Shown one piece after another: positions 10,463 through 58,208 of a stretch of 64,000 bases of DNA. Made by a program: the position numbers and the translations under genes. Origin of the DNA: Elusimicrobiota bacterium (GTDB lineage: Bacteria > Elusimicrobiota > UBA8919); NCBI GenBank assembly GCA_040757695.1, contig JBFLWK010000001.1, forward strand, positions 89,758 through 153,757. The letters run 5' to 3'. Each line of letters opens with the position of its first letter. The first letter of the stretch is position 1. The notes under the pieces were generated by a model. The model did no database searches and was not told where the DNA came from. It worked only from the letters and a program-made list of their open reading frames with translations.

Positions 10463-11341
10463 TCATTCAATATATTTCTGTAAAGCAATTGCAAGTTTTT
10501 TAGAAAGCGTGTTTTCTTCGGTATTTAACAAAACTGCCAGATTTTTTTTAGCTTCTGCGATATTATTCTTTTTTAGATAAGTTAGTGCAACTAAAAAATG
10601 CGCATTCACCGCTGTAAAGTTAGAAATTGCGATATCTGGATTTTTTTTCATATTAATATATCCTTCTAAAATTCGGGAATCAAACGATGTAGTAAAAAAT
10701 GGTTCTGATTCAGCATATTTACCAGTTAAAACATTCAACTGTAAAATACTGTTTTTTATACTATCGGTTGGACATAGTGCCAGCGCCCTTTTGTATAAAT
10801 CAATAGCTTCGTTATCTCGCCCGGTATTTTTATAAATAACCGCAAGCCCGTTTAATGCTTCAATACTGCTGTTATCAAGTTGCAGTACTTTTTTATAGTA
10901 TTCTTCTGCCTTTTCGTATAGCAATTTTTTATAATAAACCGCACCCAGCCCGAGATAAATCCGTATATCTTTTGAGCCGTATTTTAATGCTTTATTATAT
11001 TCAAAAATCGCTTCATTATGCATATCAGCACCGCGATATGCCTCCCCTAATTTTAGAAGGACAACCGGGTTTTTTTTCTTAATTTTTTTGGCATCAGTAT
11101 AAAATGTAATTGCATAACTGTACTCGCCACGCATTAAATACTCATCACCTTTAGAGATATAGAATCTAATTTTTTCTTTTTTTGATTCTGCATATAAAAA
11201 GATGGAAAGATAGAAAGATAGAAAGATGGAAAGATAGAGAGATGGAAAGATAGAAAGATGGAAAGATAGAAAGGAAAATCTATTGCCCAACCACCTAGCC
11301 ATCTTACCATCTATCCATCTATTAGAATAGTATTTTTTCAT
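10463..11341 (-). CDS. TPR-repeat protein with a repeat-encoded hydrophobic N-terminus
   Basis: Several TPR-like segments (AITFYTDAKKI..., LYEKAEEYYKKVLQLD...). The N-terminal FSFLSFHLSIFPSLYLSIFLSFYLSIFLY is encoded by 8-nt tandem repeats (agatRgaa)n at ~11199-11275. Confidence 0.5.
   Translation of the reverse strand: MKKYYSNRWIDGKMARWLGNRFSFLSFHLSIFPSLYLSIFLSFYLSIFLYAESKKEKIRFYISKGDEYLMRGEYSYAITFYTDAKKIKKKNPVVLLKLGEAYRGADMHNEAIFEYNKALKYGSKDIRIYLGLGAVYYKKLLYEKAEEYYKKVLQLDNSSIEALNGLAVIYKNTGRDNEAIDLYKRALALCPTDSIKNSILQLNVLTGKYAESEPFFTTSFDSRILEGYINMKKNPDIAISNFTAVNAHFLVALTYLKKNNIAEAKKNLAVLLNTEENTLSKKLAIALQKYIE
11199..11275. repeat. Tandem octanucleotide repeats (AGATAGAA/AGATGGAA, ~9 units) inside the 5' coding end of the TPR gene
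   Basis: Read directly from the sequence. The unit length is not a multiple of 3 and gives an 8-aa periodic hydrophobic peptide. Confidence 0.8.
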
Positions 11342-12294
11342 TTTAGAAATACTATTTTATCAATAAACTTTTCAAGTATTTTATCTTTGATAGCATTCGC
11401 CTTACTTCTTGTGGCAACAAGCCCTGCCTCTATACATTCTGCTGACCTGTCAAGTTCTATCATACTCACATTTTTTATATTCGGTATTATTACAAAATCG
11501 GCATTTTTTATCTGATTAGATACCAGGAATCCAGCTTGAATATTTATCGCCTGAATGAGTGTTTTCATAACATTATCTATATTAAATAATGAATAATCTA
11601 CCTGTGGCCAGACAGCAATTACAAAATCGGCAGCCATTACTTTTGCGATATCAATCGGTAGATTATCAACCAACCCGCCGTCTACAAGCAGCCGATGTCG
11701 GTATTCAACCGGCTTAAAGAGACCCGGGATTATTGCAGAAGCACGCATTGCAAATGCTGCCTCGCCTTCCTTAAAAACGATTCGTTCACCAGTTTTTATA
11801 TCACAGGCGATACAGGCAAACGAAATTTTTAACTCGTCAAACCTTTTTTGCCTGATATGTTTTTCCAGATATTTTTCAAGTTTTTCTGTGCTTAACAGCG
11901 ATTCCGCAGTAATAAGTGTTAGCAGTTTAGTTGCTGAAAGATTTGATATTTTATTCCAGCCAATATCAGTCCCTATCCGTTCTATATCAGTTATCGCCAT
12001 ACCTGTCGCATAGAGCCCGCCAACAAGCGCACCGGCACTGGTACCAACAATAATATCAGTCGGTATATTATTTTCTTGAAGCACCTTTAAGACGCCGATA
12101 TGACTCAGACCTCGTGCGCCGCCACCACCTAATACTACCGCGATTTTAGGCCGCTTAGAGTTCAATGCTAAAAAATCTTTCCATAATAAATCTCTTAATA
12201 AATTATCAGATTGAGCATAAAGGCAGGTAAAAGGTAAAAGGTAAAAGGTAAAAAGTAAAAGGTAAAATCTCAAACTGCGAAGAACAGGATACAT
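11338..12294 (-). CDS. Patatin-like phospholipase
   Basis: GGGARG oxyanion motif, GTSAGA (GxSxG nucleophile elbow), DGGLVDN (catalytic Asp). The signal peptide RFYLLLFTFYLLPFTCLYAQ is encoded by heptamer repeats. Confidence 0.8.
   Translation of the reverse strand: MYPVLRSLRFYLLLFTFYLLPFTCLYAQSDNLLRDLLWKDFLALNSKRPKIAVVLGGGGARGLSHIGVLKVLQENNIPTDIIVGTSAGALVGGLYATGMAITDIERIGTDIGWNKISNLSATKLLTLITAESLLSTEKLEKYLEKHIRQKRFDELKISFACIACDIKTGERIVFKEGEAAFAMRASAIIPGLFKPVEYRHRLLVDGGLVDNLPIDIAKVMAADFVIAVWPQVDYSLFNIDNVMKTLIQAINIQAGFLVSNQIKNADFVIIPNIKNVSMIELDRSAECIEAGLVATRSKANAIKDKILEKFIDKIVFLK
12226..12268. repeat. 6× GGTAAAA heptanucleotide tandem repeat (coding strand TTTTACC) encoding FYLLPFT in the signal peptide of the patatin gene
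   Basis: ggtaaaaggtaaaaggtaaaaggtaaaaagtaaaaggtaaaa. The 7-nt unit is in frame only in multiples of three units. Confidence 0.85.
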
Positions 12295-12297
12295 TTT

Positions 12298-13593
12298 TTA
12301 TTCAATAATTTTGCCGATACTGGTTTCTAAATTGATTTTTGCGATTATAACATCTTTCAATGCATCAATATATTCAAGTTGGATATTCATCGCTGTCTCT
12401 AACATTTCAATAAACTCAAGATATGTAAGTTCTTTTAATACCTCATCTGTTACAGTTGTAGCAAGTTGTTCTTTTTCGTTAGTTTTTTGTTCAAACTTTT
12501 TAACTGCAAACTCGTAATCAACAAAACATTTTCTTACCTCGGCCTGGATTGAGTCGGTAATACTTGCTCGGTTAATCTGTGTTTTTCTATATTGGTACTT
12601 TTTTTGTTTTATTCGGGCAAACTGACCAAAACCATCAAATATCGGTAGTGTAAAATTTATAGTTGCATTCCACGCTCTTTTTTCAAATGGCAACTGTCTA
12701 TCTTCAAGTTGATAGTTGCCACCGAGTGTAATTATAGGATACCTGCCGGATAATGATAGGTTTACTGAAAGCGCATCCATCTGTTCCTGAAGTTGCGTTT
12801 TTTTAAGTTCAGGCCGATATTCAAGCGCCCAGGCAATGCATTTATTGAGGTCTACCACAGCCTTTTTGTGCTCTAACTCGCCTTTGATTGTGAATATCGT
12901 ATTTAACTCTATCCCGATAGAATCAAGAAAATCAATTTCTGCCAGTTCCAGTTCTTTCTGGTTTTTGGTTTCTGCTGATTTTATTTTTTCAATTTTTTTT
13001 TCAGATATAAATCTGTCTTTAGGGTTTAAAGACTCATTTTTTCTATTTGATATTTTTTCAATAGTTGCTTTATAAATCTCAACTTTTTTCTGGATTGATA
13101 GAAGTGTATAGAAATTTTTTTTAGCCGATGAGCCTGTTTTGTTTTTGATTACCTCGTAATCACTTTCAGCCGATTTCAATTCTGTTTCTGCAAACTTCTT
13201 TGTAGCAGAAATTTTGGCACCACTCCATAATATCTGATAGAGCGAAATTTTGGCTGTATAATAATCTTCAATGTTATCAACCAGTGGCTCAATTTTTTGT
13301 GGCAGGATAGTGTTGCCCAAAATAGGCGAAATCAACAGCGGGCTTTCGGCTTTGAATTTGGAATAGTTGGCGTTGAACTCCAATTGCGGATACATTATTG
13401 ACCGCGCTTCTTTCAGCCGTTGTCTGGCAATCTCTATATCCTGTCGGGCGGATAGAAGTTGCTGGTTGTTTGAAATCGCAAGATTAACACTATCGTCAAC
13501 TGTTAAAACTCTTTCTACAAGTTGCTGGGAATAGAGACAGGTAAAAGGTAAAAGGTAAAAGGTAAAAGGTAAAAGGTAAAAAAATTTTTTCAT
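12298..13593 (-). CDS. TolC-like outer membrane efflux protein (OEP family)
   Basis: Signal peptide, then a TolC-type N-terminus LTVDDSVNLAISNNQQLLSARQDIEIARQRLKEARSIMYPQLEFNANYSK; two-repeat coiled-coil architecture; 431 aa. Confidence 0.65.
   Translation of the reverse strand: MKKFFYLLPFTFYLLPFTCLYSQQLVERVLTVDDSVNLAISNNQQLLSARQDIEIARQRLKEARSIMYPQLEFNANYSKFKAESPLLISPILGNTILPQKIEPLVDNIEDYYTAKISLYQILWSGAKISATKKFAETELKSAESDYEVIKNKTGSSAKKNFYTLLSIQKKVEIYKATIEKISNRKNESLNPKDRFISEKKIEKIKSAETKNQKELELAEIDFLDSIGIELNTIFTIKGELEHKKAVVDLNKCIAWALEYRPELKKTQLQEQMDALSVNLSLSGRYPIITLGGNYQLEDRQLPFEKRAWNATINFTLPIFDGFGQFARIKQKKYQYRKTQINRASITDSIQAEVRKCFVDYEFAVKKFEQKTNEKEQLATTVTDEVLKELTYLEFIEMLETAMNIQLEYIDALKDVIIAKINLETSIGKIIE
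13540..13581. repeat. 6× GGTAAAA heptanucleotide repeat encoding FYLLPFTFYLLPFT in the TolC-like signal peptide
   Basis: Near-identical ~50-nt cassette (acag + 6 units + aaaaattttttCAT) to those at 12226 and 20440. Confidence 0.85.
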
Positions 13594-18352: not shown

Positions 18353-20493
18353 TATTTCTCAGGCAGATTAAATAAATCAATTTTTAGGTTCTGGTTAAAA
18401 TACAACTTTTTAAGCAACAAGTTAGTTTTTACATTAAGCGTGGGATTACTAAAATCAAGCCGATGCGGAAAAATTATTCTGCCGGCTGGTTTATAGTCGG
18501 CAAATTGTATCACAGAACCGTTGTCAAACTCCAGTTCGGTAATTGTATGCGATTTCTTGTCAATTTTTAAGTTGACAGTACTATTTTTAAAACTATAAAG
18601 ATTTTTTTCTTCATTCACAAAATTCAGTTCATCAAAACATTCGGTATCAAAAATCTTGAAAATATCTCTAACCCAGCAAAAGTCGCTAGTTAAGTCATAC
18701 ATTGTTTGAGATGGTGTAATATACACGATTGTCCCCTGTCGTAATAGAATAAGCCCTTGCGGGACTGAAAACAGCCCTAAAATTTCTACTCTGAGTTGTT
18801 TAGGTTTCTTGAAGAAAAACGGGCCATTGATACTGTAGGATTTGTTTTTATAGTTAGTTGTGGCTTTTACAAAGCCGGCAATATCTTGCAGGTTTTTGAA
18901 ACATTTTAACGCACGATTTTTTACCATTTCCGACGACCATTCCAGATTTTTTTTATATTTTCTTATTTTGTTTTCTATCAGTTTATTTCTTTCTAACTCT
19001 AATAACAATGCGGTTTCCCAGTTGTCAACCGCATTCTGAACATCGCCAACAGATAAGTAGCAATCGCCGAGATGGTCAAAAATTATAGGGTCATCCAATT
19101 TCTCAGATGCTTTTTTTAACAATTTTAATGCCTCGTCATATTCTGCCCGACGATAATACACCCAGCCAAGCGAATCAATATATGCGGGATTTTCAGGTTC
19201 TAACTCTAACGCTTGTTTAATAAACTGTTCTGCTTCTACAAGTTTTACATTCTTATCCGCCCAGGTATAGCCAAGATAATTATACGCCTGCGAAGTGGTT
19301 GTATCTATTTCTATAACCTTAAAAAACGATTGCTCTGCCAAAGCCCATTTTTTCAGTTTATCATAAACCACACCGAGTTCAAAATGATATTTAGCATTTT
19401 GTGGCTCCATTTTGAGTGCTTTGTTAAGATATTTTTCTGCTTTCTTGTAGTTATTCAGAACCTCGTAATTCATCGCCAGAAAAAAATATACATCCGGATT
19501 TTCAGAACCTAACCTGATTGCTTGTTCAAACGATTTTACTGCCTGTTTGGTATTTTCTAAAATTGTAAAAATATAGCCCTTCTGTATGTATGGTTCAGGC
19601 AATTTTTTGTTTAGATGAATTGAATGGTCAAAATATTTTAGTGCCTCATCATATTTTTTTTCATCAAGCGCAATCAAGCCAAGATAGTAATCAACCCAGT
19701 GATTTGTTGGAATAGTTTCTTTTATTTTTAACAGATATTTTTTAGCAGTTAATAAATCCTTATTAAGAATTGAAAGCCCGGCAATTTTTAGCATAGGTTC
19801 GGTATCTTCAGGAAAGATATTAAGTAATTTCTCGTATAATTCAATTGCTTTTTTGTAGTCCTTTTTTTCTTCGTAAATCCCAGCAAGCGCAACCAATGGA
19901 ACAATAGAATTGGAGTCCATCTCATATGCTTTTTTAAGATACGATTCGGCTTCAACGGGCTTATTAAGTTTGTGATACAGAATTCCGATACTTACATAGA
20001 TTTCTGGTGATTCCGGCTGTAACTGAAGATATTTTTCAAAATATGTAATTGCTTTTTCGTAATTTTTAATTTCAGCATATAGAACAGCCAGGTTATAAAG
20101 TGCTTTTTCATTTGCTGGTTCTGTTGACAAAATTTTTTCATATGCAGAGATAGCATCTTCAGGTTTTTTTTGATAAACCGATATTTCGGCAATAAGTTCA
20201 GTTGTTAATTTATCTTCAGGCTGCTGTCTGGCTATTTCAGAAATCAGTTCAGATGCGGAGTTTATATCGCCTGTTAGAAAATAGAGGCTCAGCAGTTGTT
20301 TTTTGAGATATATTGAAGCAGAATCATACACTGCAGATTTTTTATACTCGTCTATCGCTTTTTTAGAATCACCCATCAGTTCTGCGATATTGCCTAAAAT
20401 ATAATGATAGTATGCATCGGATTGGGCAGAATGAAGACAGGTAAAAGGTAAAAGGTAAAAGGTAAAAGGTAAAAGGTAAAAATACTTTTTCAT
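18352..20493 (-). CDS. TPR-repeat secreted protein with a C-terminal LolA-like/lipoprotein-sorting-like domain
   Basis: At least ten TPR units (AISAYEKILSTEP..., AITYFEKYLQLQP..., etc.). Signal peptide MKKYFYLLPFTFYLLPFTCLHSAQ encoded by heptamer repeats. C-terminal domain assignment is low-confidence. Confidence 0.6.
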   Translation of the reverse strand: MKKYFYLLPFTFYLLPFTCLHSAQSDAYYHYILGNIAELMGDSKKAIDEYKKSAVYDSASIYLKKQLLSLYFLTGDINSASELISEIARQQPEDKLTTELIAEISVYQKKPEDAISAYEKILSTEPANEKALYNLAVLYAEIKNYEKAITYFEKYLQLQPESPEIYVSIGILYHKLNKPVEAESYLKKAYEMDSNSIVPLVALAGIYEEKKDYKKAIELYEKLLNIFPEDTEPMLKIAGLSILNKDLLTAKKYLLKIKETIPTNHWVDYYLGLIALDEKKYDEALKYFDHSIHLNKKLPEPYIQKGYIFTILENTKQAVKSFEQAIRLGSENPDVYFFLAMNYEVLNNYKKAEKYLNKALKMEPQNAKYHFELGVVYDKLKKWALAEQSFFKVIEIDTTTSQAYNYLGYTWADKNVKLVEAEQFIKQALELEPENPAYIDSLGWVYYRRAEYDEALKLLKKASEKLDDPIIFDHLGDCYLSVGDVQNAVDNWETALLLELERNKLIENKIRKYKKNLEWSSEMVKNRALKCFKNLQDIAGFVKATTNYKNKSYSINGPFFFKKPKQLRVEILGLFSVPQGLILLRQGTIVYITPSQTMYDLTSDFCWVRDIFKIFDTECFDELNFVNEEKNLYSFKNSTVNLKIDKKSHTITELEFDNGSVIQFADYKPAGRIIFPHRLDFSNPTLNVKTNLLLKKLYFNQNLKIDLFNLPEK
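20440..20481. repeat. 6× GGTAAAA heptanucleotide repeat in the signal-peptide codons of the TPR gene
   Basis: aggtaaaaggtaaaaggtaaaaggtaaaaggtaaaaa; same cassette as at 12226 and 13540. Confidence 0.85.
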
Positions 20494-25371: not shown

Positions 25372-25777
25372 CTCTTGGCCTCGTTGGTTTTGAAAGATTA
25401 TGAATCACCGTAATATCGCCAATTTCTGAAATTTTATAACTTCCGTGACATCTTTTCCTCTTGGCGTAAAATTCCGTCTTGCAAAAGCCGGGCAGAAGCC
25501 ATAAAAAATTCCCCAAAACAATCCCATATACAGTCCCAAAAAGTTTGAATGACAATGCAATTAGAAATGCCTCTATAAAAGTACCACCACCGTAAGAAAC
25601 ATTGTAGGGCTTTATTGTTGTCTTGCCAGTTTCAACCAATTCTTTTGCTATCAAACCATATATCGCTTCCTCGCCAGAAGGATATTGATAGGTTGTAGAA
25701 AGCAAACTAAACCTTAATATCCCTACAGATAATAATATCGTAACAATAGCCAAATTTTTTATATTTTTTTTTGTCAC
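25358..25777 (-). pseudogene. Short ArnT/PMT-like N-terminal paralog fragment (139 aa); possibly a remnant, or a split N-terminal module
   Basis: YPSGEEAIYGLIAKELVETGK mirrors the DE...Y...A motif of the neighbouring GT-C genes, but the protein ends after ~3 TM helices. Confidence 0.3.
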
Positions 25778-27363
25778 CGTATCTCGTAAATTGTAAATTT
25801 TTCTACCGGTATTCTTGAGAATGAATACGGCAGTAGCCCATACATATTTAAGTGAAAACCTGCCTGTGCTAACGGACTCATCGTTTTGAATGGATTCTTC
25901 GTTAGTATATACTTTTGTTCAACAAGTTTTAATCTTTTAACAATCACAGGATGAATTTTCTGCGGAACTGGTAAAACAGGGCAGACAATCAAAGAACCAC
26001 TCGCATAATTCTTACTGTCTGATTCTACCGCATAAAATCCATTTCTTTCCATATAATACTGAAACCCAAGATGTCCTGTAAAATAGACACTTTTGTCAGC
26101 GTATCCTTTTTTGATATATTCTGAAATGTTTCTATATGAATTGGCTAAAATATAATCTGATTGTGCAATCAAAAACGATAAAATAAGCCCGATAATAACC
26201 GTGGTAATCAAAAATATTTTATGTTTTAGGCATATGTCTGAAATTTTTACAAAAAGCAAAATTACAGGCGGCAAAAGTGGTAACAGATACCTGACTGCGA
26301 TTATTGCTGAAACTGCTACAAAAAAAAATAGATACAAAAAAAACCAGCTCACCAGAAAAATTATTTCTTTTTGATAATCCCATTTTTTAAGCGAGCGAAT
26401 AAAAACAAAAAACAAAAGAATTGCTGACGAGCTAAAAAGTCCAAAAAGAAAATTTTGTAGTTTAGTGTATCCAAGTAAATCAAAAAAAAAGGTTCCTGTT
26501 GCAAAAACTACTAAAAAAAGCCAGACAGCACTTTTTTTTAACTGGTAACCTAACCATAATATACTCAATGGAAAAACAAAAGCACCACCAATATAAGTAA
26601 GTAGTGGGATTTCTTTTACAAGCCCAAAAGAGATACCAATACTGACTGATTTTTTCAGAATCTGGAGTTCGTTATAAACAAATTTGTTATGTAATGACCA
26701 TGCAACTAAAAAAAGAATCGGAATTATAAAAAAACCGATATTTTTTTTCAGGGTTTTATTCAGCAGAAACCAAACAAAAAGCAGTCCGAGATTTATTAAT
26801 GCTACAAATTTTATTAAAATTGTAAACCCGAGCAGGAGCCAGCCTAAATATTTTTCACGAATACAAAAATAAATTCCCCATACTGAAAATGTAATCAGCG
26901 GTACATCCAGCATTATATCGGTTGCATTTACAAAAAACGCAGGACTTGCTATCAAAAGAAGCGCAGAAAAAAGTGGATCTGTTTTCAACTTTCTCGCCAA
27001 AAAATACATACCCACAACGGAAAGTATCGCAAAACAAAGAAATGCCAAATGCAGTGCTTTTTCATTTTCGCCGAAAATTTTTATAACACCTGCCAGAAAA
27101 TACGATATAAGCGGAGGATTATTAGCAACATCCCATCCTGAATAATTTTTGTCAGCACAATTTATTGTGAAACTAAACGGTTTTGCTGGCTCCTTTAGAA
27201 TCTGCCTGGCAGTGTAAATATAAAATATAGCATCAGAAGAAATTGCTTTATTATAAAATGGGAATAAAAGCAAAAATGTTAAAAAGCAGAGAAATCTGAT
27301 TTCCGAACATTTGTTCGGTTTTGTATTTCCGAACATTTGTTCGGTTTTATTTGAAATGGTCAT
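25774..27363 (-). CDS. GT-C family glycosyltransferase, ArnT/PMT-like; start uncertain
   Basis: DAIFYIYTARQI...NPPLISYFLAG (KPPL-like motif), at least 11 TM helices. Its first ~20 codons contain two CGAACATTTGTTCG palindromes and overlap the thiL stop. Confidence 0.55.
   Translation of the reverse strand: MTISNKTEQMFGNTKPNKCSEIRFLCFLTFLLLFPFYNKAISSDAIFYIYTARQILKEPAKPFSFTINCADKNYSGWDVANNPPLISYFLAGVIKIFGENEKALHLAFLCFAILSVVGMYFLARKLKTDPLFSALLLIASPAFFVNATDIMLDVPLITFSVWGIYFCIREKYLGWLLLGFTILIKFVALINLGLLFVWFLLNKTLKKNIGFFIIPILFLVAWSLHNKFVYNELQILKKSVSIGISFGLVKEIPLLTYIGGAFVFPLSILWLGYQLKKSAVWLFLVVFATGTFFFDLLGYTKLQNFLFGLFSSSAILLFFVFIRSLKKWDYQKEIIFLVSWFFLYLFFFVAVSAIIAVRYLLPLLPPVILLFVKISDICLKHKIFLITTVIIGLILSFLIAQSDYILANSYRNISEYIKKGYADKSVYFTGHLGFQYYMERNGFYAVESDSKNYASGSLIVCPVLPVPQKIHPVIVKRLKLVEQKYILTKNPFKTMSPLAQAGFHLNMYGLLPYSFSRIPVEKFTIYEIR
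27303..27344. promoter_or_regulatory. Tandem pair of Cheo-box-like palindromes CCGAACATTTGTTCGG (CGAAC-N4-GTTCG), 26 nt apart, directly after the thiL stop and at the 5' end of the GT-C gene
   Basis: Read from the sequence: tttccgaacatttgttcggttttgtatttccgaacatttgttcggtttt. It matches the LexA/DinR operator consensus CGAACRNRYGTTCG of Firmicutes-type SOS boxes. Confidence 0.55.
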
Positions 27364-28321
27364 AGCCGTTATCCTGTAAACTAATTTTTTTATTATTAGA
27401 ATCCAGATAGATAATTTTTCTGTTTTTTGTTATTTTGCCGACCTCATAAAATCTTTTGCAAAAATATGATTTTTTAGACGGTGAAACTGTAAAGAGAAGT
27501 TCGTATTCTTCACCACCAAATAAGACAAAGTGTGAAGTGTGGAGTGTGAAGTGTGAAGTAAAAGCATTCAAAGACGTGGAAACAGGAATTTTATCTAAAT
27601 ATATTTCACAGCCAACTTTTGATTCCTGACAGATAAACCGAACCGACTTATCAAATCCGTCGGAAGAATCAATCATTGCTGTAGCGAACCCGCTTTTGGC
27701 AATAAAAAGCCCTTCTTTTACTTTGGGGTAAGGTCGCAGGTGCTTTTTTTTGAGTTCTTCGTAACCTTTAAATTTCTTTTGCAACAAATACAGCCCTGCA
27801 GCAGAATCACCAAAAGTGCCGGTAGTAAAAATTATATCGCCCGGTTTCGCACCACTTCTTAAAATACCAGCGCCATAATTCTGTTTTCCTATAAGTGTGA
27901 TTGAAATTATTATACAAGCAGGAGATTTTACTGTATCACCGCCAATAATATCAACATTGAACTCTGTGGCAAGTTTTTTGAGCCCTTTATAGAGTGCATC
28001 TATACCAGCAACTTTTACAGACGGCGGAAGTCCAACAGTCACAAGACAGTAAAGCGGCACTCCACCCATTGCGGCAATATCAGACAGGTTGACCGATAAC
28101 GCTTTATATCCAATATCAAAAAAACTGTAATACTTCTGGGAAAAATGGATATTTTCTACAAGAGTATCCGTTGTAAAAAGCAGGTTTTCGTTTTTGCTCT
28201 TTATAACAGCACAATCATCACCTATACTTACTATTACATTATCATTATGAGTGCCGCTTGATAGTTTTTTTTTTCTGATTTTTTCAATCAGGCCGAACTC
28301 ACCAAGTTGGGTTATTTTCAA
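27347..28321 (-). CDS. thiL: Thiamine-monophosphate kinase
   Basis: MKITQLGEFGLIEKI...SIGDDCAVIK...TTDTLVENIHF, the AIR-synthase-related ThiL N-terminus. Confidence 0.8.
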   Translation of the reverse strand: MKITQLGEFGLIEKIRKKKLSSGTHNDNVIVSIGDDCAVIKSKNENLLFTTDTLVENIHFSQKYYSFFDIGYKALSVNLSDIAAMGGVPLYCLVTVGLPPSVKVAGIDALYKGLKKLATEFNVDIIGGDTVKSPACIIISITLIGKQNYGAGILRSGAKPGDIIFTTGTFGDSAAGLYLLQKKFKGYEELKKKHLRPYPKVKEGLFIAKSGFATAMIDSSDGFDKSVRFICQESKVGCEIYLDKIPVSTSLNAFTSHFTLHTSHFVLFGGEEYELLFTVSPSKKSYFCKRFYEVGKITKNRKIIYLDSNNKKISLQDNGYDHFK

Positions 28322-33866: not shown

Positions 33867-36539
33867 TTAATCGCCGAACAGTTTATCAAATATGTTTTTT
33901 TTCTTACCCTCCACATCACCCTTTTTTTTGGCTTCTTCCTGTTGTTTTACCTGCCATTCTAACAGTCGTTTTTTTAACATCTCGTTTTCTTTAAGTACTG
34001 TTTGATATTTAATCTGCCAGTTTGTTTCAGTCAACATTATTTGTTTTTTAAGTGATGCTGTTTGGCTTTCTAACTCCTCAATTTTCTTATTTAATATCTT
34101 TTTCTGTTCCTCTATTCCTTGCCGGACAAGTTTTTCTATTTCATTAGTTTTTTCTTGTAGTATCTGTTGTTTTTCTTGCTGTAGATTAAATATCTTTTCA
34201 TTCAGTGAGATTCGCTCATCATTCATTTTCTTGTGTAATATTTCCGTTTCGGTTTCAACCTGCGAGAGCCGGTTTAGAAGTTCCTGTTCTTTCTGTTTCG
34301 TTTTTTCAATATGTTTCTCGTTTTCTGCCTGTTGATTTATAAGCATTTGCTCAAATTTTTGCTTCTCAACATTCGCGGATTCTCGCAGTTTTATTATTTG
34401 CATTTGCTCTATCTGTAATTGTTCTTTAACCGTTTTGAGAAGTTGTTCGCGCTTTTCTATTTCAATTTGCCAATTAGCATCTTTCTGGATTATTACTGCT
34501 TCTAATTCATTCTGTTGTGTTACATCTTTTTCTACAACACTCTTTAATCTGTTTATTTCTGCTCTTAATTCATTTATTGTCTGCTTTTTTTCTTCAAACT
34601 CTTTTCGCCAGTGTTCGTCGTTTTGCTTGAACTCCTGTATAAGTGCTAATTTTTCTTTTTCATTATTATCTATTCTGTTTTTGAAACTATTTATTATTCG
34701 TTCCTTTTCCTCTTTCTCTATTTGATACTGTGTTGCTTTTTCTCGTTCAACCAAAATTATCCCGCCCAATTTGTTTAAATCCTCGTCGGTATGTTTTATT
34801 TCCTGTTGTAATTGTTTTATCTTCTGTTCAAAACTCTGCACGATGGTATCTTTTGATTGTAATTGCTCATTGAGCAGTTTTATTGTCAGGTCTTTTTTTT
34901 GCAACTCAGTTTGAAGTTGGAAGGTCTGCTGTAACATTTCTGTTTCTAATTTTTTTATTTCGTCTTCTTTAAGGTTAAGTTTGGCAACCAACTGACTATT
35001 ATTTTCAAGCATTTGATTTTTCAGAGTATAGATTTCTACCTCTTTATTTTCTACTGTTGTTTCTAACTCTTTTAATTGGTTTTCTAATGTTTTGAGCATC
35101 TGGTCTCGTTTCTGAAGTTCAATTTGTAACTGTGTATCTTTCTGTAATATCTCGGTTCCTAATTCACCTTTTTGTTTGATATTTTCTTCTATTGTCTTTT
35201 TTAGTTTACTGATTTCACTCCGTAACTCATCTATTGTTTGTTTTTTCTCTTCAAACCCTTTTCGCCAGCGTTCGTCGTTTTCCTTAAATTCCTGTAAAAG
35301 TGTCTGATTCTCTTGCCCTAATTCTACTATCCGTTTGCTTAAATTGCTTATTTCTTTCTCTTTCGCTTCATGCTCTACACACCATTGCGAAACCTTTTGC
35401 ACTAGTTCTAAATCTAACTCTGCCCGTTGTTGCTCTAATTTGTTCGTTTTTAACTGCCAATCTCTATCATGTTCTTCTAATGTTTTATTAAATGTCTCAC
35501 GCACTTCTTTTATCTGTTTTTTTAATGTTTCTATTTCCTGTTCTTTCTGTTGAACCGTCCCTTGAAACTGGTCATTAATTACATCTTTTTCTCTATCATA
35601 TTTCTCACGCTCGGCTAAAATTATTGCACCTAATCTGTTCAAGTCGTTTTTCTCTCGGTTTAATTCTGTCTGTAATTGTTTTTCTTTTTCGTCAAAACCC
35701 TGTATAAGCGAGCTTTTCTCTTTTTCAAACTCTTTTTTTAACTGCGAACTCTCTATTTCAACCATTTGTAATTTGTCGTTCAGTAATTTTATTGTTTGCT
35801 CTTTTTTCTGCAACTCGGTTTGAAGTTGAAAATTCTGCTGTAACATTTCTGTTTCTAACACACTTTTTTCTTTTATTATAATACCGAGATTTTTATGTGT
35901 TTCGTTTAATTCTTTGCGTAGTTCATCAATTTCTTGCTGTCTGTTCTGCAGACCTTCCTGCCAGCGGTTCTCTTTTTGAACAAATTTATCTATCAGTGAG
36001 TCCTTCTCTTTATCAAAATTATCTTGTAACTCTTTTTCACGAGTTCTGATTTTCCCTAATGCTTCAACTCGGATTTCTTCCCGCTGTCTATCCAGTTTCC
36101 TAATTTCTTCTTCTTTTAGTTGAAATACATCCTGCCAGTGCTTGTTATTTTCAAAAATCTGGGTTTTGAGATTCTGGATTTCAATATCTTTATGTTTAAT
36201 TTTTGTCATTAACTCTGTGATTTCCTGTTTGTATGGTATTTCTATCTCTTTAACTTTTGTCTCTGCTTCTGCCAATTTTTGGGTTATTTGAATTTGTTGC
36301 GATTTAATTTTTTGTATTTCATCTGACCATTGTATCAGTTTGTCTTCTAATTCTTTAACTATATCTGACAGGATTCTTTTAATATTTGTTGCAACTGCAA
36401 AAGCACGAATATCAGTATCAGATTTCCCGGGTTTTGTTATTTTTTCTTCGGTATAACCAAAACCAGTTTTCATTTTGGTTTTTATTTCTAACAGCAAGGC
36501 GTCTATCTCGTCTTTATATTTTTCCATAATTATTTCCAA
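33867..36539 (-). CDS. 890-aa coiled-coil protein with ~100-aa internal repeats (Q/E/K-rich), inserted between acsC and the RACo gene
   Basis: Heptad-rich sequence throughout. Repeated blocks: ETEMLQQNFQLQTELQKKEQTIKLLNDKLQ / ETEMLQQTFQLQTELQKKDLTIKLLNEQLQ, and RWQEGLQNRQQEIDELRKEL / RWRKGFEEKKQTIDELRSEI / HWRKEFEEKKQTINELRAEI. No enzymatic motif. Confidence 0.6.
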   Translation of the reverse strand: MEIIMEKYKDEIDALLLEIKTKMKTGFGYTEEKITKPGKSDTDIRAFAVATNIKRILSDIVKELEDKLIQWSDEIQKIKSQQIQITQKLAEAETKVKEIEIPYKQEITELMTKIKHKDIEIQNLKTQIFENNKHWQDVFQLKEEEIRKLDRQREEIRVEALGKIRTREKELQDNFDKEKDSLIDKFVQKENRWQEGLQNRQQEIDELRKELNETHKNLGIIIKEKSVLETEMLQQNFQLQTELQKKEQTIKLLNDKLQMVEIESSQLKKEFEKEKSSLIQGFDEKEKQLQTELNREKNDLNRLGAIILAEREKYDREKDVINDQFQGTVQQKEQEIETLKKQIKEVRETFNKTLEEHDRDWQLKTNKLEQQRAELDLELVQKVSQWCVEHEAKEKEISNLSKRIVELGQENQTLLQEFKENDERWRKGFEEKKQTIDELRSEISKLKKTIEENIKQKGELGTEILQKDTQLQIELQKRDQMLKTLENQLKELETTVENKEVEIYTLKNQMLENNSQLVAKLNLKEDEIKKLETEMLQQTFQLQTELQKKDLTIKLLNEQLQSKDTIVQSFEQKIKQLQQEIKHTDEDLNKLGGIILVEREKATQYQIEKEEKERIINSFKNRIDNNEKEKLALIQEFKQNDEHWRKEFEEKKQTINELRAEINRLKSVVEKDVTQQNELEAVIIQKDANWQIEIEKREQLLKTVKEQLQIEQMQIIKLRESANVEKQKFEQMLINQQAENEKHIEKTKQKEQELLNRLSQVETETEILHKKMNDERISLNEKIFNLQQEKQQILQEKTNEIEKLVRQGIEEQKKILNKKIEELESQTASLKKQIMLTETNWQIKYQTVLKENEMLKKRLLEWQVKQQEEAKKKGDVEGKKKNIFDKLFGD

Positions 36540-37843
36540 ACAGTTTTCAGATATTTTGGAATACCTGACGCTTCCTTAGGCCCAACCAGAACCTGCCAGC
36601 CGGTAGTATCTTCCAATTTCCCGCTCATCACGGAGACATATCCGGGAATGATTATTTTTTTATGTGAGACCTTACTTGCAATTTCCGTTTTTTTCATCCA
36701 GGTATCAACTATTTCAGCATTAAACTTATCCGCAGCCCAAGCAGTTAAAACAGACATACCATCGGAATCACAGACCAGAAGCCACGCAGGCATTTTTGAG
36801 TTTTCTACTTCAGGCACGACGGTAAAAAATGTTAACGAAAAGTTTGTTGTAACTAAAAAAGGTGATTGAGCATCAGGTGTGCCAATGGTATAAAGTTTGG
36901 GCTCCATCATTATAGGTTTCTGCGGGTCAGTATAGATATTAAGCCGAAGTGTAATCAACGGCAGGATATCTTCAACTTTATCGGTTTCTACAACAAGTAT
37001 GTTCGCATATTTTGTAATATATGTTGACGCTTCAAATATATCTTTGGCAAATGCAAGGACAGGATAGCCAAGCGGTCTAAAATTCTTTTTTAGTGCCAGC
37101 CGTCTGATTTGTGTAAAATCCTGCACACATTTTGATAGTTCCCGAGAACCGCAATCAAGCACAATATCTTTAATACCTGATGAAGATGCCTTTTGAGAAA
37201 GTGAAACAAGTTTTTCAATATTTTCTCCATATACGCAAATCGGTACTTTATACTTTTTTGCCAATCCGAACATTTGTTCGGATTGCTTTTCAGTTGCACA
37301 ATAAATCAGTGGTTTTTTTTGAGAAATATTTTTCAGCACCTCATCTATTGCCGTCGGATTTTCACTAATAAGAATTAAAGGCAATTTTATTTTATCAGAA
37401 AGTTCTTTTGATATATCTGCGAATTTTGATATATCATTTGAAACATTTTTAACCGCAACAAGGTCTATGCTAACCAGCATTCCAACTCTTTCAAACTGAA
37501 GTTTTTTTATTTTTTCTATTTTAGTTGAAAGATTGGGCTCGTTATCGGCGACAGATACAGCAATCGCTGTTGGATGATAGAATGTTTTTTCATGACGGAA
37601 AAGCACTGTCTCGCCACCGATTTCTACTTTTTTTTCACCTTCGCCAATTGTGATTGTTGCCATTGGTGGAAGCGATGCGGACTCTAAAAGTTGTTTTGCC
37701 TGTTCAGTTACATCCGGACATTTATCCAGCGTAGTTTTTTTTCCAGCGAGTGCCATTGCAAATGCCAGACAGGTAGGGAATCCACATTTTTTACAATTTG
37801 TTTTTGGCAGATGTTTGTAAATATCAAGCCCTGAAAGCGCCAT
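36530..37843 (-). CDS. acsC: Corrinoid iron-sulfur protein large subunit (CODH/ACS gamma subunit)
   Basis: N-terminal [4Fe-4S] motif CKKCGFPTCLAFAMALAGKKTTLDKC; TIM-barrel and C-terminal B12-binding Rossmann region; 437 aa. Confidence 0.75.
   Translation of the reverse strand: MALSGLDIYKHLPKTNCKKCGFPTCLAFAMALAGKKTTLDKCPDVTEQAKQLLESASLPPMATITIGEGEKKVEIGGETVLFRHEKTFYHPTAIAVSVADNEPNLSTKIEKIKKLQFERVGMLVSIDLVAVKNVSNDISKFADISKELSDKIKLPLILISENPTAIDEVLKNISQKKPLIYCATEKQSEQMFGLAKKYKVPICVYGENIEKLVSLSQKASSSGIKDIVLDCGSRELSKCVQDFTQIRRLALKKNFRPLGYPVLAFAKDIFEASTYITKYANILVVETDKVEDILPLITLRLNIYTDPQKPIMMEPKLYTIGTPDAQSPFLVTTNFSLTFFTVVPEVENSKMPAWLLVCDSDGMSVLTAWAADKFNAEIVDTWMKKTEIASKVSHKKIIIPGYVSVMSGKLEDTTGWQVLVGPKEASGIPKYLKTVWK
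37263..37284. promoter_or_regulatory. Single 22-nt palindrome AATCCGAACATTTGTTCGGATT (Cheo-box-like core) inside acsC coding sequence
   Basis: Read from the sequence; it encodes ...SEQMFGL in frame. Confidence 0.4.
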
Positions 37844-43022: not shown

Positions 43023-43706
43023 TTACCTTACGATTTTGGTTTTTACATTACCAATAATAGAAACTGTTTCTTTGTCAACTGCAAGCACGATTTTGTCACC
43101 GGAGTACTCTGAAACACCATCGGCATCAGTTCTGACTATTTTTGGTGGACCGCCTAAAAGTAAAATTTCGTTTGTTTTATGGTCGTAAAATGCTTCCTTA
43201 CTGAATGCTTCTGTTTCCGATTGAGAAATTTTAACATTTTGGATTGCATGGAACCGGTCGCCGAACTCAAAAATCTCTAATTCTTCACATTTTAATTCAA
43301 TAACATCTGTTGTGTTCTGGCTTAATGTTCTTTTTACTTTTACATTCTTTTTCAAAATACCCTGTCCGTTATTTTTGTTATATTCTGCTTCATCACCCCA
43401 GGAATATGTAACGGATGTGCCACTGGAATAACAGATATAGATATTTCCGGTGCCTGAAATCACACTTGTTTTTTCGTTTGATTTCATTTTATCCGCAGAG
43501 ATTGTAAGGTTCTGCTGTGTAAATTTTACATTCCCAATAAATTCAAGAATCTCGCCTTTAGATAGTATCTTCATCTGGTCACCGGTGATTGTTGCCTGTT
43601 CACCAGCATAGAGGCAGTAAATAAGTGAATAAGTGAGTAAGTGAATAAGTGAAAGACACATAACCACATAACCACTTAACCACTCAACCACTTTATTTAT
43701 CTTCAT
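43023..43706 (-). CDS. LptA/OstA-like periplasmic LPS-transport protein
   Basis: Beta-jellyroll OstA-type repeats (ITGDQMKILSKGEILEFIGNVKFTQQNLTISADKM...); adjacent to lptC-like; signal peptide encoded by octamer repeats. Confidence 0.5.
   Translation of the reverse strand: MKINKVVEWLSGYVVMCLSLIHLLTYSLIYCLYAGEQATITGDQMKILSKGEILEFIGNVKFTQQNLTISADKMKSNEKTSVISGTGNIYICYSSGTSVTYSWGDEAEYNKNNGQGILKKNVKVKRTLSQNTTDVIELKCEELEIFEFGDRFHAIQNVKISQSETEAFSKEAFYDHKTNEILLLGGPPKIVRTDADGVSEYSGDKIVLAVDKETVSIIGNVKTKIVR
43621..43692. repeat. Two blocks of 8-nt tandem repeats (AAGTGAAT ×4; CATAACCA ×4) encoding the signal peptide of the LptA-like gene
   Basis: ataagtgaataagtgagtaagtgaataagtgaaagacacataaccacataaccacttaaccactcaaccac. 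Confidence 0.8.
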
Positions 43707-57188: not shown

Positions 57189-58208
57189 TTATTTGAGGAA
57201 AGTCAACAAAGAATTGTATAAAAGCGGGAGCATAATTTCATGGTGACCGATAAAGTAAAAACCGCTATTCCCAGATGGACGGGATACGACATTTTCAAAA
57301 GCACGATACTGATAATTCATATCAAAATTGGCAGCGGTAAAATTTTTTACTTTATACCCAAGATTTCTTGCAAGATTAAGCGCCTTAAGAAAAACTTCAG
57401 GTAAAATTACTGCAGAACCGAAATTTAAAATAACACCACCTTCAAGTTTTGAGATAACTTCAGAAAATTTCAGAAAATCGGTGTATGATGTCTTGCCCCA
57501 AGAGGCACCATCGCATTCAGGATGCTGGTAAATTACATCCGTGCCTATCCCAATATGAACAGTTGCTGGAATTTTTAATTTATATGCGTTTGCAAAAATG
57601 CTGAACTCTGAAAATTTTAATTTTTTTTCAGAAACCATTTTTCCAATACTTTCGCCAAGCCCGAGATTTTTTTCGGCACCGCTTTTTACCGTTTCATTTA
57701 GAAACTTGCCCGTCTCAAAAGCCATACCAAATTTTCCAGTTTTTAATTGTTTAACAACATCTTCGGATGTTTTTCCACAAAAGGCAAGTTCAAAATCGTG
57801 AATAACCGAAGCACCATTTGTTGCAATTGCTGTAACAATTTTTCTTTTCATCATATCAATAACAATACAGGAAAGCCCACATTTTATTATATGTGCTCCA
57901 AACATAAAAATTACTGGTTTTCTGTTTTTTCTTGCTGTAAATATCCTTTTTACAAGTTCTCTAAAGTTTTTACCTGCTAAAATATCGGGCAGCAAATTAA
58001 AAAAATCGTTCTTGAACAATTGTCTAGTGCGAACATTTGTTCGCAGCGAACATTTGTTCGCCTTCGCAAACATATCTATCTGCACTTTGCTTTTTCTTTT
58101 CACCAATGGGTATCTTTTTACATTTCTAAGGTTTAACATTTTTGCCCTCCCAAAATATTTGGAACCACAGATTCCCGCCTGAGGCGGATCCGCCTTTGGC
58201 GGAAACAC
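57189..58208 (-). CDS. Hypothetical protein, tentatively deoxyhypusine-synthase-like fold. The true start is probably the internal Met (MFAKANK..., ~58073).
   Basis: Weak resemblance to the DHS NAD-binding core (IFMFGAHII...GLSCIVIDMM...VTAIATNGASVIHDFE; GGVILNFGSAV). The 5' region carries two GCGAACATTTGTTCGC palindromes. Confidence 0.3.
   Translation of the reverse strand: MFPPKADPPQAGICGSKYFGRAKMLNLRNVKRYPLVKRKSKVQIDMFAKANKCSLRTNVRTRQLFKNDFFNLLPDILAGKNFRELVKRIFTARKNRKPVIFMFGAHIIKCGLSCIVIDMMKRKIVTAIATNGASVIHDFELAFCGKTSEDVVKQLKTGKFGMAFETGKFLNETVKSGAEKNLGLGESIGKMVSEKKLKFSEFSIFANAYKLKIPATVHIGIGTDVIYQHPECDGASWGKTSYTDFLKFSEVISKLEGGVILNFGSAVILPEVFLKALNLARNLGYKVKNFTAANFDMNYQYRAFENVVSRPSGNSGFYFIGHHEIMLPLLYNSLLTFLK
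58029..58061. promoter_or_regulatory. Tandem pair of Cheo-box-like palindromes GCGAACATTTGTTCGC (17 nt apart) at the 5' end of the DHS-like gene
   Basis: tgcgaacatttgttcgcagcgaacatttgttcgcc. Same core as 27303-27344 and 37265-37282. Confidence 0.55.

What the first reader, a model, noticed from the sequence alone, without database searches (positions are those of the whole stretch)
27303..27344. Tandem Cheo-box-type (CGAAC-N4-GTTCG) palindromes at the thiL / GT-C gene junction
Two perfect 16-nt palindromes CCGAACATTTGTTCGG match the Gram-positive-type LexA (DinR) operator consensus CGAACRNRYGTTCG. A 14-nt core occurring five times in 64 kb of AT-rich DNA is far above chance. Here the pair sits right after the thiL stop and within the first ~20 codons of an ArnT/PMT-like GT-C gene. 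This points to SOS (or LexA-like repressor) control of an envelope glycosyltransferase, or else to a structured RNA element.
Basis: partly seen in the sequence, partly recalled or inferred. Interest (0 to 1): 0.6.

Follow-up and report, generated by a model that had tools for sequence, protein, structure and literature searches.

The report
LexA-box repeats embedded inside genes
The two palindromes are real and match the textbook Gram-positive LexA operator exactly, but they lie inside a glycosyltransferase coding sequence as an 11-codon in-frame insertion and belong to a family of identical boxes scattered within genes, so they are not an ordinary SOS promoter switch.

Summary
CGAACAAATGTTCG (gene strand) occurs five times in the window against 0.02 expected, with no 1-2-mismatch variants. 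It equals the published S. aureus LexA consensus.

The context does not fit a classical operator. All 64 kb is transcribed on the minus strand and all five boxes lie inside coding sequences:
- Site A (27303-27344) is codons 7-21 of a GT39/PMT_2 gene. Its conserved MTI start overlaps the thiL stop, and 16 box-free homologues lack these about 11 codons.
- Site C is a 14-codon insertion in a deoxyhypusine-synthase-like gene.
- Site B is built on native E-Q-M codons of the corrinoid Fe-S protein. The 16-mer is identical in a relative with 79% protein identity.

No promoter-like site, SOS gene or lexA is nearby. Tight arrays of the same box sit in housekeeping genes of other Elusimicrobia and an Ignavibacteria MAG. 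In that MAG one array directly follows a prephenate dehydrogenase carrying a LexA-type DNA-binding domain. Several close relatives have no boxes.

Best reading (about 0.4): these are dispersed, sequence-constrained binding sites for a dimeric LexA-type winged-helix protein. They may act as an intragenic roadblock or a sink. They seem to start at partial native matches and to be amplified by slippage. The role is inferred. LexA in this genome could not be checked.

The parts
27329..27344 (-). Box A1: CCGAACAAATGTTCGG, read as T-E-Q-M-F-G (codons 7-12 of the GT39 gene). It starts 2 nt after the thiL stop codon.
27303..27318 (-). Box A2: CCGAACAAATGTTCGG, read in a different frame as P-N-K-C-S-(E) (codons 16-21 of the GT39 gene).
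27299..27348 (.). A 26-nt direct duplication (1.9 copies, 100% identical) that carries both boxes. Together they make about 11 extra codons compared with box-free GT39 homologues.
   Evidence: TRF; homologue N-termini and DNA alignment
27347..27363 (-). The 17-nt overlap of the thiL stop (TAA 27349-27347) and the GT39 start (ATG 27363-27361). The start is conserved as M-T-I in the homologues, so there is no intergenic spacer.
25774..27363 (-). GT39/PMT_2 (GT-C fold) glycosyltransferase gene that hosts boxes A1 and A2 in its N-terminal cytoplasmic tail, ahead of the first transmembrane helix.
   Evidence: PF13231; NCBI name: glycosyltransferase family 39
37262..37285 (-). Box B: a single box inside the corrinoid/Fe-S protein large subunit gene (acsC/cdhD-like, ORF 36530..37843), read as S-E-Q-M-F-G. 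There is no indel relative to PDB 2h9a. In this lineage the palindrome is extended to 10-bp arms (CAATCCGAAC/GTTCGGATTG).
58029..58061 (-). Boxes C1 and C2: GCGAACAAATGTTCGC twice at a 17-nt period (3-nt spacer), codons 27-37 of a deoxyhypusine-synthase-like gene (57189..58139). They are part of a ~14-codon lineage-specific insertion.
58013..58026 (-). A decayed third copy in phase with the 17-nt period (TAGACAATTGTTCA, 9 of 14 matches).
   Evidence: reading

Best explanation
WHAT IT IS (well supported). The pair is two members of a dispersed family of identical 14-nt inverted repeats, CGAAC-AAAT-GTTCG. This is the canonical Gram-positive 'Cheo box' LexA operator consensus. The family has spread through this Elusimicrobiota genome inside protein-coding sequences.

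At 27303-27344 a 26-nt unit carrying the box has been duplicated. It forms an in-frame stretch of about 11 extra codons in the N-terminal cytoplasmic tail of a GT39 glycosyltransferase, whose start codon overlaps the thiL stop. The boxes are translated in different reading frames, so what is conserved is the DNA, not the peptide.

HOW IT MOST LIKELY WORKS (inferred).
- The boxes are high-affinity double-stranded DNA sites for a dimeric LexA-type winged-helix protein. This could be LexA itself or a LexA-DNA-binding-domain paralogue.
- Closely spaced tandem copies would be bound cooperatively, as at known tandem LexA sites.
- Because they lie inside transcription units, binding could only act as an elongation roadblock or as a sink/anchoring site for the protein. 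It could not act by occluding a promoter.

HOW NEW SITES ARISE (inferred).
- New sites appear where the native sequence already resembles part of the box.
- They are completed by substitution or by a short templated patch.
- They are then amplified into arrays by slippage, which the alternating CGAAC/GTTCG arms should favour.
- Only in-frame products in tolerant loops or tails survive.
For: 1. Sequence. The box equals the S. aureus LexA consensus 14 of 14. The same tandem 14-mer sits directly upstream of lexA in two Actinomycetes MAGs, so it is a genuine LexA operator elsewhere.

2. DNA-level constraint.
- Five identical copies, with no 1-2-mismatch variants.
- The site A boxes are identical in a relative whose surrounding DNA is only ~72% identical (L012/L047/L052).
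- The site B 16-mer is identical in L066 (79% protein identity). Codon usage predicts this spelling of S/A-E-Q-M-F-G only ~1% of the time.
- The boxes are read in all three frames.

3. Intragenic insertions or replacements.
- Site A: +11 aa against 16 homologues that start MTIL...FSKI.
- Site C: +14 aa against 18 homologues.
- Arrays in TrxR, CobO, amidohydrolase, HypF and MtnA of other MAGs fall in loop regions, adding 3 to 35 aa.

4. Both orientations relative to genes occur in the Ignavibacteria MAG. That fits a symmetric duplex-DNA binder better than an RNA signal.

5. Candidate partner. In the Ignavibacteria MAG a box pair starts 1 nt after the stop of a prephenate dehydrogenase that carries a C-terminal LexA_DNA_bind domain (PF01726, 29.8 bits). 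A further box lies inside that gene.

6. Spacing. Tandem LexA sites 1-10 bp apart with cooperative binding are documented (PMC4951493).

7. Seeding at partial native matches.
- ATGTT(T/C)GC at the left junction of site C.
- TTTTCGAAAAT at the right junction of site A.
- GAACAAATG (E-Q-M) at site B.

8. The genome is very rich in short tandem arrays, so slippage is plausible.
Against: - No lexA or LexA_DNA_bind gene was found in the window or in any Elusimicrobia locus held. The rest of the genome could not be searched.
- Real LexA regulons show degenerate sites, a variable central spacer, promoter locations and DNA-repair genes. None of these applies here.
- Bacteroidetes lack canonical LexA and use other motifs (PMC8565304). 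Yet a Saprospiraceae MAG and an Ignavibacteria MAG carry the same boxes.
- The strict identity of the asymmetric AAAT spacer, and the extension of box B to a 10-bp stem, go beyond what LexA binding needs. They hint at copy-paste spread or hairpin formation.
- Several close relatives (83 kb in all) have no boxes, so any function is dispensable.
- A roadblock ahead of GT39 would also throttle downstream tsaE/tsaB-type genes, which has no obvious benefit.
Confidence: 0.4

Rival explanations
1. Selfish or neutral palindromic mini-repeat. The box is a short repeat unit that spreads by templated patch insertion, gene conversion and slippage, with no trans-acting partner and no benefit. It survives only in tolerant parts of genes because the genome is 93% coding. 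This would be a miniature analogue of Rickettsia palindromic elements.
For: - Copy-identical units, with a spacer specific to each lineage: ccc in all 5 Ignavibacteria arrays, ggg or cc in PEVQ01, ctg in the window.
- Patchy presence. In the GT39 tree the two box-bearing lineages each have closer box-free relatives. Site A is empty in a MAG that has boxes elsewhere (L064 versus L014).
- Zero boxes in 83 kb of relatives.
- Insertions sit in loops and tails.
- Decayed copies at array edges.
- The genome teems with other dispersed short tandem arrays.
Against: - An arbitrary selfish 14-mer would match the LexA consensus at all 14 positions only with negligible probability.
- The same core recurs in different phyla with different spacers.
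- Perfect conservation of sites A and B across ~72% nucleotide / 79% protein divergence, with no decayed dispersed copies, argues for constraint.
- No transposase, RAYT or target-site duplication was seen.
Confidence: 0.22
2. Chromosome-organisation sites. The boxes would be the recognition sites of a site-specific nucleoid protein, analogous to parS/ParB, NBS/Noc, SBS/SlmA or matS/MatP. Such sites are near-consensus palindromes scattered every 10-50 kb and are mostly intragenic.
For: - Spacing of about 10-20 kb between sites (27.3, 37.3 and 58.0 kb).
- All sites intragenic and near-perfect.
- Sites conserved between lineages.
- Independent of orientation.
- No link to particular gene functions.
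Against: - Tight tandem arrays are not typical of chromosomal site families of this kind.
- Close relatives lack the sites entirely.
- No candidate protein was identified.
- The match to the LexA consensus would be a coincidence.
Confidence: 0.12
3. mRNA hairpin. The inverted repeats would act in the transcript, slowing translation just after the GT39 start codon or stabilising/processing the polycistronic mRNA.
For: - The pair folds into one interrupted 14-bp hairpin, -19.5 kcal/mol, z = -5.8, starting 17 nt after the AUG.
- Box B folds as a 10-bp stem, -15 kcal/mol.
- The flanking pair switches from C-G (sites A and B) to G-C (site C), which keeps a sixth base pair.
- All five window copies have the same orientation as the genes.
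Against: - Stability is a trivial consequence of any palindrome.
- In the Ignavibacteria MAG the arrays are antisense in cobO and in the tyrA-aroA spacer.
- There is no covariation in the 5-bp core, and the loop is invariant.
- No Rfam family matches.
- There is no U-tract on the gene strand. The terminator-like hits are on the empty + strand.
Confidence: 0.1
4. Classical SOS operator. LexA would bind these boxes to repress a promoter that drives the GT39 gene.
For: - Exact consensus match.
- The tandem arrangement resembles lexA-promoter operators.
Against: - The boxes lie inside the coding sequence, downstream of a conserved start codon that overlaps thiL.
- No promoter-like hexamers overlap them.
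- Most homologues manage without them.
- The other three boxes are mid-gene or in non-SOS genes.
Confidence: 0.04
5. Slipped-strand switch. The 26-nt and 17-nt direct repeats at the 5' ends of genes are not multiples of three. Gain or loss of one unit would switch the gene off, as at contingency loci.
For: - Periods of 26 and 17 nt in the first 40 codons of two genes.
- The same window holds about 20 heptamer or octamer arrays in 5' coding regions, many in signal peptides.
Against: - There are only two copies, so the slippage rate would be low.
- Box B is single and mid-gene.
- Arrays in other genomes lie mid-gene in housekeeping enzymes.
- All observed alleles are in frame.
Confidence: 0.05

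Closest known systems
LexA (DinR) 'Cheo box' SOS operators of Firmicutes and Actinobacteria, including tandem operators in lexA promoters
   Same: - Identical 14-nt sequence: CGAACAAATGTTCG is the S. aureus consensus.
- Dimer-type inverted-repeat architecture.
- Closely spaced tandem copies, as at lexA promoters (PMC4951493).
   Different: - Not in promoters, and not next to SOS genes.
- Embedded in coding sequences.
- All copies identical, including the spacer, instead of a degenerate site spectrum.
- Density of about 1 site per 20 kb, which is far above that of a regulon.
Rickettsia palindromic elements (RPE; selfish DNA inserted in frame into protein-coding genes; from my own knowledge of Ogata et al. 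2000)
   Same: - Palindromic, multi-copy and lineage-specific.
- Inserted in frame into otherwise conserved genes at tolerant positions, and translated.
   Different: - RPEs are about 100-150 bp single units. Here the unit is 14-17 nt and forms arrays of 31-66 nt.
- RPEs have no known match to a transcription-factor operator.
- Some copies here replace native sequence with almost no change in length.
REP/BIME elements with RAYT transposases
   Same: Short palindromic repeats, clustered in tandem, dispersed genome-wide and specific to a lineage.
   Different: - REPs are extragenic and imperfect, and they carry a conserved GTAG head.
- They differ between species.
- No RAYT gene was seen in any locus held.
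Chromosomal site families parS, NBS (Noc), SBS (SlmA) and matS (MatP); from my own knowledge
   Same: Near-consensus palindromes of 12-16 bp, mostly intragenic, tens of kilobases apart, and conserved at the DNA level against codon drift.
   Different: - Those sites are single, not arrays.
- Each has an identified protein partner.
- They are not patchy among close relatives.
DNA uptake sequences (DUS/USS) and the cyanobacterial HIP1 palindrome; from my own knowledge
   Same: Over-represented short motifs found inside genes in several reading frames, at tolerant protein positions and in both orientations.
   Different: - Those motifs are much denser, about one per 1-2 kb.
- They do not form tandem arrays.
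- They are taxon-specific sequences, and none equals a LexA operator.

Membership tests
LexA/DinR Cheo-box SOS operator | Sequence matches CGAACRNRYGTTYC | tested here: met
   All five copies read CGAACAAATGTTCG on the gene strand. This equals the S. aureus LexA consensus.
LexA/DinR Cheo-box SOS operator | Lies in or overlaps the promoter or 5' untranslated region of the regulated gene | tested here: not met
   Sites A, B and C are codons 7-21, 186-191 and 27-37 of their genes. There is no sigma-70-like promoter match at sites A or C. thiL and the GT39 gene overlap by 17 nt.
LexA/DinR Cheo-box SOS operator | Associated with SOS genes (lexA, recA, uvrAB, dinB, imuAB/dnaE2) | tested here: not met
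   Pfam scan of 50 window ORFs found none. A tblastn search with LexA gave only noise.
LexA/DinR Cheo-box SOS operator | The organism's lexA gene carries the same box upstream | not testable with these tools
   Only 64 kb of the 155-kb contig is available. No S24 or LexA ORF was found in 501 kb of loci, except in two Actinomycetes.
LexA/DinR Cheo-box SOS operator | A degenerate spectrum of sites around the consensus, as in real regulons | tested here: not met
   Five perfect copies, none with 1-2 mismatches, and 3-mismatch hits at the chance level.
LexA/DinR Cheo-box SOS operator | Bound by LexA protein | not testable with these tools
   This needs EMSA, DAP-seq or ChIP. Indirect lead: a LexA_DNA_bind-domain ORF lies adjacent to an array in the Ignavibacteria MAG.
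In-frame selfish palindromic elements (RPE-like) | Inserted in frame within conserved protein-coding genes and absent from orthologues | tested here: met
   Site A is +11 aa against 16 homologues. Site C is +14 aa against 18 homologues. Arrays also occur in TrxR, CobO, amidohydrolase and MtnA.
In-frame selfish palindromic elements (RPE-like) | Element of about 100-150 bp with a conserved internal sequence | tested here: not met
   The unit is 14-17 nt and the arrays are 31-66 nt. No homology extends beyond the boxes between loci.
REP/BIME (RAYT-mobilised) | Extragenic location, imperfect palindrome with a GTAG head, and an associated RAYT gene | tested here: not met
   All five window boxes are in coding sequence. 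There is no GTAG head. No Y1 transposase appears among the annotated neighbours. A genome-wide search for RAYT was not possible.
Intrinsic transcription terminator | GC-rich hairpin followed by a U-tract on the transcribed strand | tested here: not met
   On the gene (minus) strand the hairpins are followed by AAAT/AAAA. The terminator-like pattern appears only on the + strand, which carries no genes.
Known structured RNA family | Match to an Rfam covariance model | tested here: not met
   No match at gathering thresholds anywhere in the window.
Contingency-locus repeat (phase variation) | Tandem repeat with a unit not divisible by 3, in 5' coding sequence, with copy-number polymorphism | tested here: inconclusive
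   Periods of 26 and 17 nt in the 5' coding sequence are present. There are only 2 copies, and no read-level data on length variants. Copy number does differ between lineages at site A: 2 against 3.

The most novel reading that the evidence does not exclude
Some Elusimicrobiota and Ignavibacteria genomes may carry a previously undescribed genome-wide network of perfect LexA-operator boxes. These boxes are written into protein-coding sequences as in-frame insertions or replacements, often as tight arrays. They are maintained at the DNA level and recognised by a LexA-type winged-helix protein that need not be the SOS repressor, for example the prephenate-dehydrogenase/LexA-domain fusion. In this reading a transcription-factor operator has become a self-propagating intragenic repeat that acts as a roadblock or anchoring site.
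Probability: 0.3. Interest if true: 0.8.

Novelty: new variant of a known kind. Interest (0 to 1): 0.62.

Why it matters
If the boxes are bound in vivo, a canonical operator sequence would have escaped promoters and colonised coding DNA. That would link three fields usually kept apart: evolution of the SOS/LexA motif, selfish palindromic repeats, and intragenic protein-binding site families.

It would also give a concrete, testable case of how new binding sites are created, by seeding at partial matches followed by array expansion. And it would show how much foreign sequence protein loops can absorb.

There is a practical point as well. Motif-based regulon prediction in uncultured phyla would wrongly assign housekeeping and envelope genes to the SOS response if such repeats are not recognised.

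Tried and rejected
- lexA in the window or in any fetched locus: tblastn, phmmer and a small profile were run. Only two Actinomycetes loci have it.
- Promoter and terminator scans at sites A and C: no promoter was found, and terminator-like hits are only on the gene-less strand.
- Rfam scan of the whole window: nothing.
- Viral contigs: only 2 loci carry tandem boxes, so the family is not mainly a phage feature.
- Walking along the source contig: a protein near the window's left end returned only a short Logan contig, a protein near the right end was not on record, and P0001 was also not on record. The rest of the 155-kb contig stayed out of reach.
- Literature: there is no paper on a LexA motif in Elusimicrobia or Ignavibacteria, and none on LexA boxes acting as dispersed or intragenic repeats.
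- ARG boxes, Rex, PurR/LacI-type operators, parS, dif and integron attC were compared from memory and rejected, because half-site or spacing does not match.
- Assembly artefact was rejected. Site B is identical in an independent Logan assembly. The site A arrays recur in a GenBank MAG contig (PEVQ01, L012) and on two contigs of the metagenome collection (L047, L052).
Full report
**1. Observation**

The two 16-mers CCGAACATTTGTTCGG are at 27303-27318 and 27329-27344. The core CGAAC-N4-GTTCG occurs five times in the window: 27304, 27330, 37267, 58030 and 58047. Dinucleotide-preserving shuffles give 0.02 expected. All five have the same spacer and the same orientation.

There are no copies with one or two mismatches. 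The 3-mismatch hits are at chance level. The 16-mers are inverted repeats of 6 nt around an asymmetric ATTT spacer, not perfect palindromes. The site A pair is a perfect 26-nt direct duplication, and the 58-kb pair a perfect 17-nt one.

**2. Orientation and identity of the motif**

Every sizeable ORF in the 64 kb is on the minus strand, and GC skew is uniformly negative. On the gene strand the box therefore reads CGAACAAATGTTCG. That string is given verbatim as the S. aureus LexA consensus in PMC11442139.

A scan of 185,579 species genomes for two such boxes within 30 nt returned 14 loci. In two Actinomycetes MAGs the pair lies immediately upstream of lexA. The sequence is therefore a genuine LexA operator in some bacteria.

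**3. Site A is inside a gene, not between genes**

thiL (PF00586/PF02769) ends with TAA at 27349-27347. The GT39/PMT_2 ORF starts at ATG 27363, which overlaps thiL by 17 nt. Twenty homologues of 49-73% identity were recovered. Apart from two called with a later start, they begin M-(T/I)-(I/V)-L-x-x-x-x-S-K-I, followed by the first transmembrane helix.

The window protein reads MTISNK-TEQMFGNTKPNKCSE-IRFLCF..., which is about 11 residues longer. DNA alignment with box-free relatives shows their junction as ...CATTTTAAGAAGTAAC... or ...CATTTTAAAAAGTGATTTTTCGAAAATA..., with nothing in between (L060, L061 and L064).

The two boxes are read in different frames (TEQMFG and PNKCSE), so the peptide is not what is conserved. 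No sigma-70-like promoter overlaps the region. The only terminator-like matches are on the gene-less + strand.

**4. The other boxes are also inside genes**

*Site C (58029-58061).* It lies in codons 27-37 of a deoxyhypusine-synthase-like gene. The gene's start (ATG 58139, preceded by GGAGGG) agrees with the NCBI call of 316 aa. In an alignment with 22 homologues, the 18 that are 73-82% identical in that alignment lack 'KANKCSLRTNVRTRQL'. The DNA alignment shows a ~42-nt insertion right after native ATGTTTGCG, where the relative L058 has ATGTTCGCC, a native right half-site. A decayed third copy follows in phase.

*Site B (37266-37281).* It lies in the corrinoid/Fe-S protein large subunit. The protein aligns without gaps to PDB 2h9a: SEQMFGLAKKY against YEQMVELAKKY. 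E-Q-M is native to the clade.

A relative with 79% protein identity (L066) has the identical 16-mer at the same codons, with different flanks. From this window's codon usage, S/A-E-Q-M-F-G would be spelled as the box only ~0.7-1% of the time. In the window the palindrome is extended to 10-bp arms.

**5. The family in other genomes**

Tight arrays of the same box occur in other Elusimicrobia MAGs:
- L006: three boxes at the 3' end of lgt.
- L012/L047/L052: syntenic with site A, with three boxes and 31 extra residues.
- L014: inside an alpha-amylase-family ORF.

They also occur in an Ignavibacteria MAG, which has five arrays, all with a ccc spacer:
- inside TrxR,
- inside CobO,
- inside an amidohydrolase,
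- in the tyrA-aroA spacer,
- in the spacer upstream of pyk.

Further arrays lie on low-GC metagenome contigs: four boxes in hypF and three in mtnA. Alignments to solved structures place them in loop regions, adding between 3 and about 35 residues. Orientation relative to the host gene is mixed. Spacers are specific to each lineage and only the 14-mer core is shared.

Many other metagenome hits are ~30-nt-spaced clusters with degenerate neighbours in phage-like regions of small genes. Those look like ordinary operators.

**6. Patchiness and constraint**

The window and L012 share only ~72% nucleotide identity, yet their site A boxes are 14/14 identical. Despite this, in a GT39 tree each box-bearing lineage has closer box-free relatives. 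A MAG with an array elsewhere (JACRDL01, L014) has an empty site A (L064).

Six loci from relatives, 83 kb in total (L056, L058, L059, L060, L061 and L063), contain no box even at two mismatches. The family is thus lineage-specific and dispensable. Where it is present, it is held invariant.

**7. Candidate partner**

No lexA or S24 ORF was found in the window or in 501 kb of fetched loci, other than in the two Actinomycetes.

In the Ignavibacteria MAG, the ORF ending 1 nt before one array is a prephenate dehydrogenase with a C-terminal LexA_DNA_bind domain (PF01726, 29.8 bits). The domain aligns with the N-terminal domains of B. subtilis and E. coli LexA, and the protein has no S24 domain. Another box lies inside that ORF. 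With roughly ten genes flanking the five arrays, a chance neighbour of this kind is unlikely. I estimate about 1%, which is my own rough figure.

Canonical LexA is absent from Bacteroidetes, which use GGA-N5-TCC or CTAA-N5-TTAG instead (PMC8565304). The SOS LexA therefore cannot be assumed for the Saprospiraceae and Ignavibacteria cases. Cooperative binding to tandem LexA sites 1-10 bp apart is documented (PMC4951493).

**8. Interpretation**

*Shown.* The boxes are real and non-random. They are identical to a LexA operator and embedded in coding DNA as in-frame insertions or replacements. They are constrained at the DNA level, patchy among relatives, and shared as a core across phyla.

*Inferred.* They are duplex-DNA sites for a dimeric LexA-type winged-helix protein, acting as an intragenic roadblock or sink. 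New sites start at partial native matches and expand by slippage, which is plausible in a genome crowded with short tandem arrays.

*Rivals.* The alternatives are a purely selfish mini-repeat, chromosome-organisation sites, an mRNA hairpin (-19.5 kcal/mol for the pair), a slipped-strand switch, and the classical promoter operator. The last is the least supported.

**9. Verdict**

What is there is stranger than that. A canonical operator sequence behaves as a dispersed intragenic repeat. I found no description of this in the searchable literature.

Noticed in passing
window 12225-12267, 13539-13581, 20439-20481; also 11194-11273, 43616-43693, 47908-47939, 49692-49803: The hydrophobic cores of many predicted signal peptides are encoded by perfect tandem repeats of 7-8 nt. 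One example is TTTACCT x6 at the 5' ends of three different genes (patatin-like, outer-membrane efflux, TPR), giving ...FYLLPFTFYLLPFTCLY(A/S). Other arrays end in ...CLYA or LYA. The period is not a multiple of 3, so gain or loss of one unit would shift the frame. This looks like mass phase variation, or signal peptides built from repeats.
   Followed up: partly
window 27528-27559 (inside thiL); L012 5465-5495: A heptamer array (CTTCACA x4.6 on the gene strand) occupies codons 255-265 of thiL, with no length change relative to homologues. The relative L012 has a different heptamer (CTTCCGA x4.4) at the same position. Similar 30-45-nt heptamer or octamer arrays are common in the related Elusimicrobia loci and in the Ignavibacteria loci.
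   Followed up: partly
window 7058-7094 and 47908-47939: The same heptamer family occurs as tandem arrays in opposite orientations in two unrelated ORFs: GCAGATT repeats at one locus and AATCTGC repeats at the other, on the gene strand. Short tandem arrays other than the LexA-like box are therefore also dispersed.
   Followed up: no
L003 1640-2710 (Ignavibacteria MAG JBGFRZ010000042.1): A prephenate dehydrogenase is fused to a C-terminal LexA-type DNA-binding domain (PF01726) and has no S24 peptidase domain. It lies in an aroF-tyrA-aroA cluster, with one box inside the gene and a box pair starting 1 nt after its stop codon.
   Followed up: partly
window 58161-58203: Two adjacent GC hairpins, CCGCC-aaa-GGCGG and CCGCC-tca-GGCGG, lie between the DUF3108 gene and the deoxyhypusine-synthase-like gene. 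They are flanked by an AATCTGTG/CACAGATT inverted repeat.
   Followed up: no
L063 about 7346-7356 (JAEMOH010002096.1): A run of N sits exactly at the thiL/GT39 junction in a MAG closely related to the box-bearing L012 lineage. This may be an assembly gap caused by a repeat array at site A.
   Followed up: no
window 33867-36539: An 890-aa ORF lies between the corrinoid-protein gene and the RACo gene. It has no Pfam match, and the 34-36 kb stretch has an extreme AT skew of -0.44.
   Followed up: no
window 1-64000: All sizeable ORFs over 64 kb are on one strand, with uniformly negative GC skew and ~93% coding density. Many neighbouring genes overlap by a few nucleotides.
   Followed up: no
L012 5750-5779; L018, L044, L049: When two boxes are 2 nt apart, the junction reads TGTTC-N4-GAACA, which is the Verrucomicrobia LexA motif. 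This is the mirror image of the situation described in PMC4951493. Arrays with a 1-nt spacer make overlapping TCGAAC...GTTCGA 16-mers.
   Followed up: no
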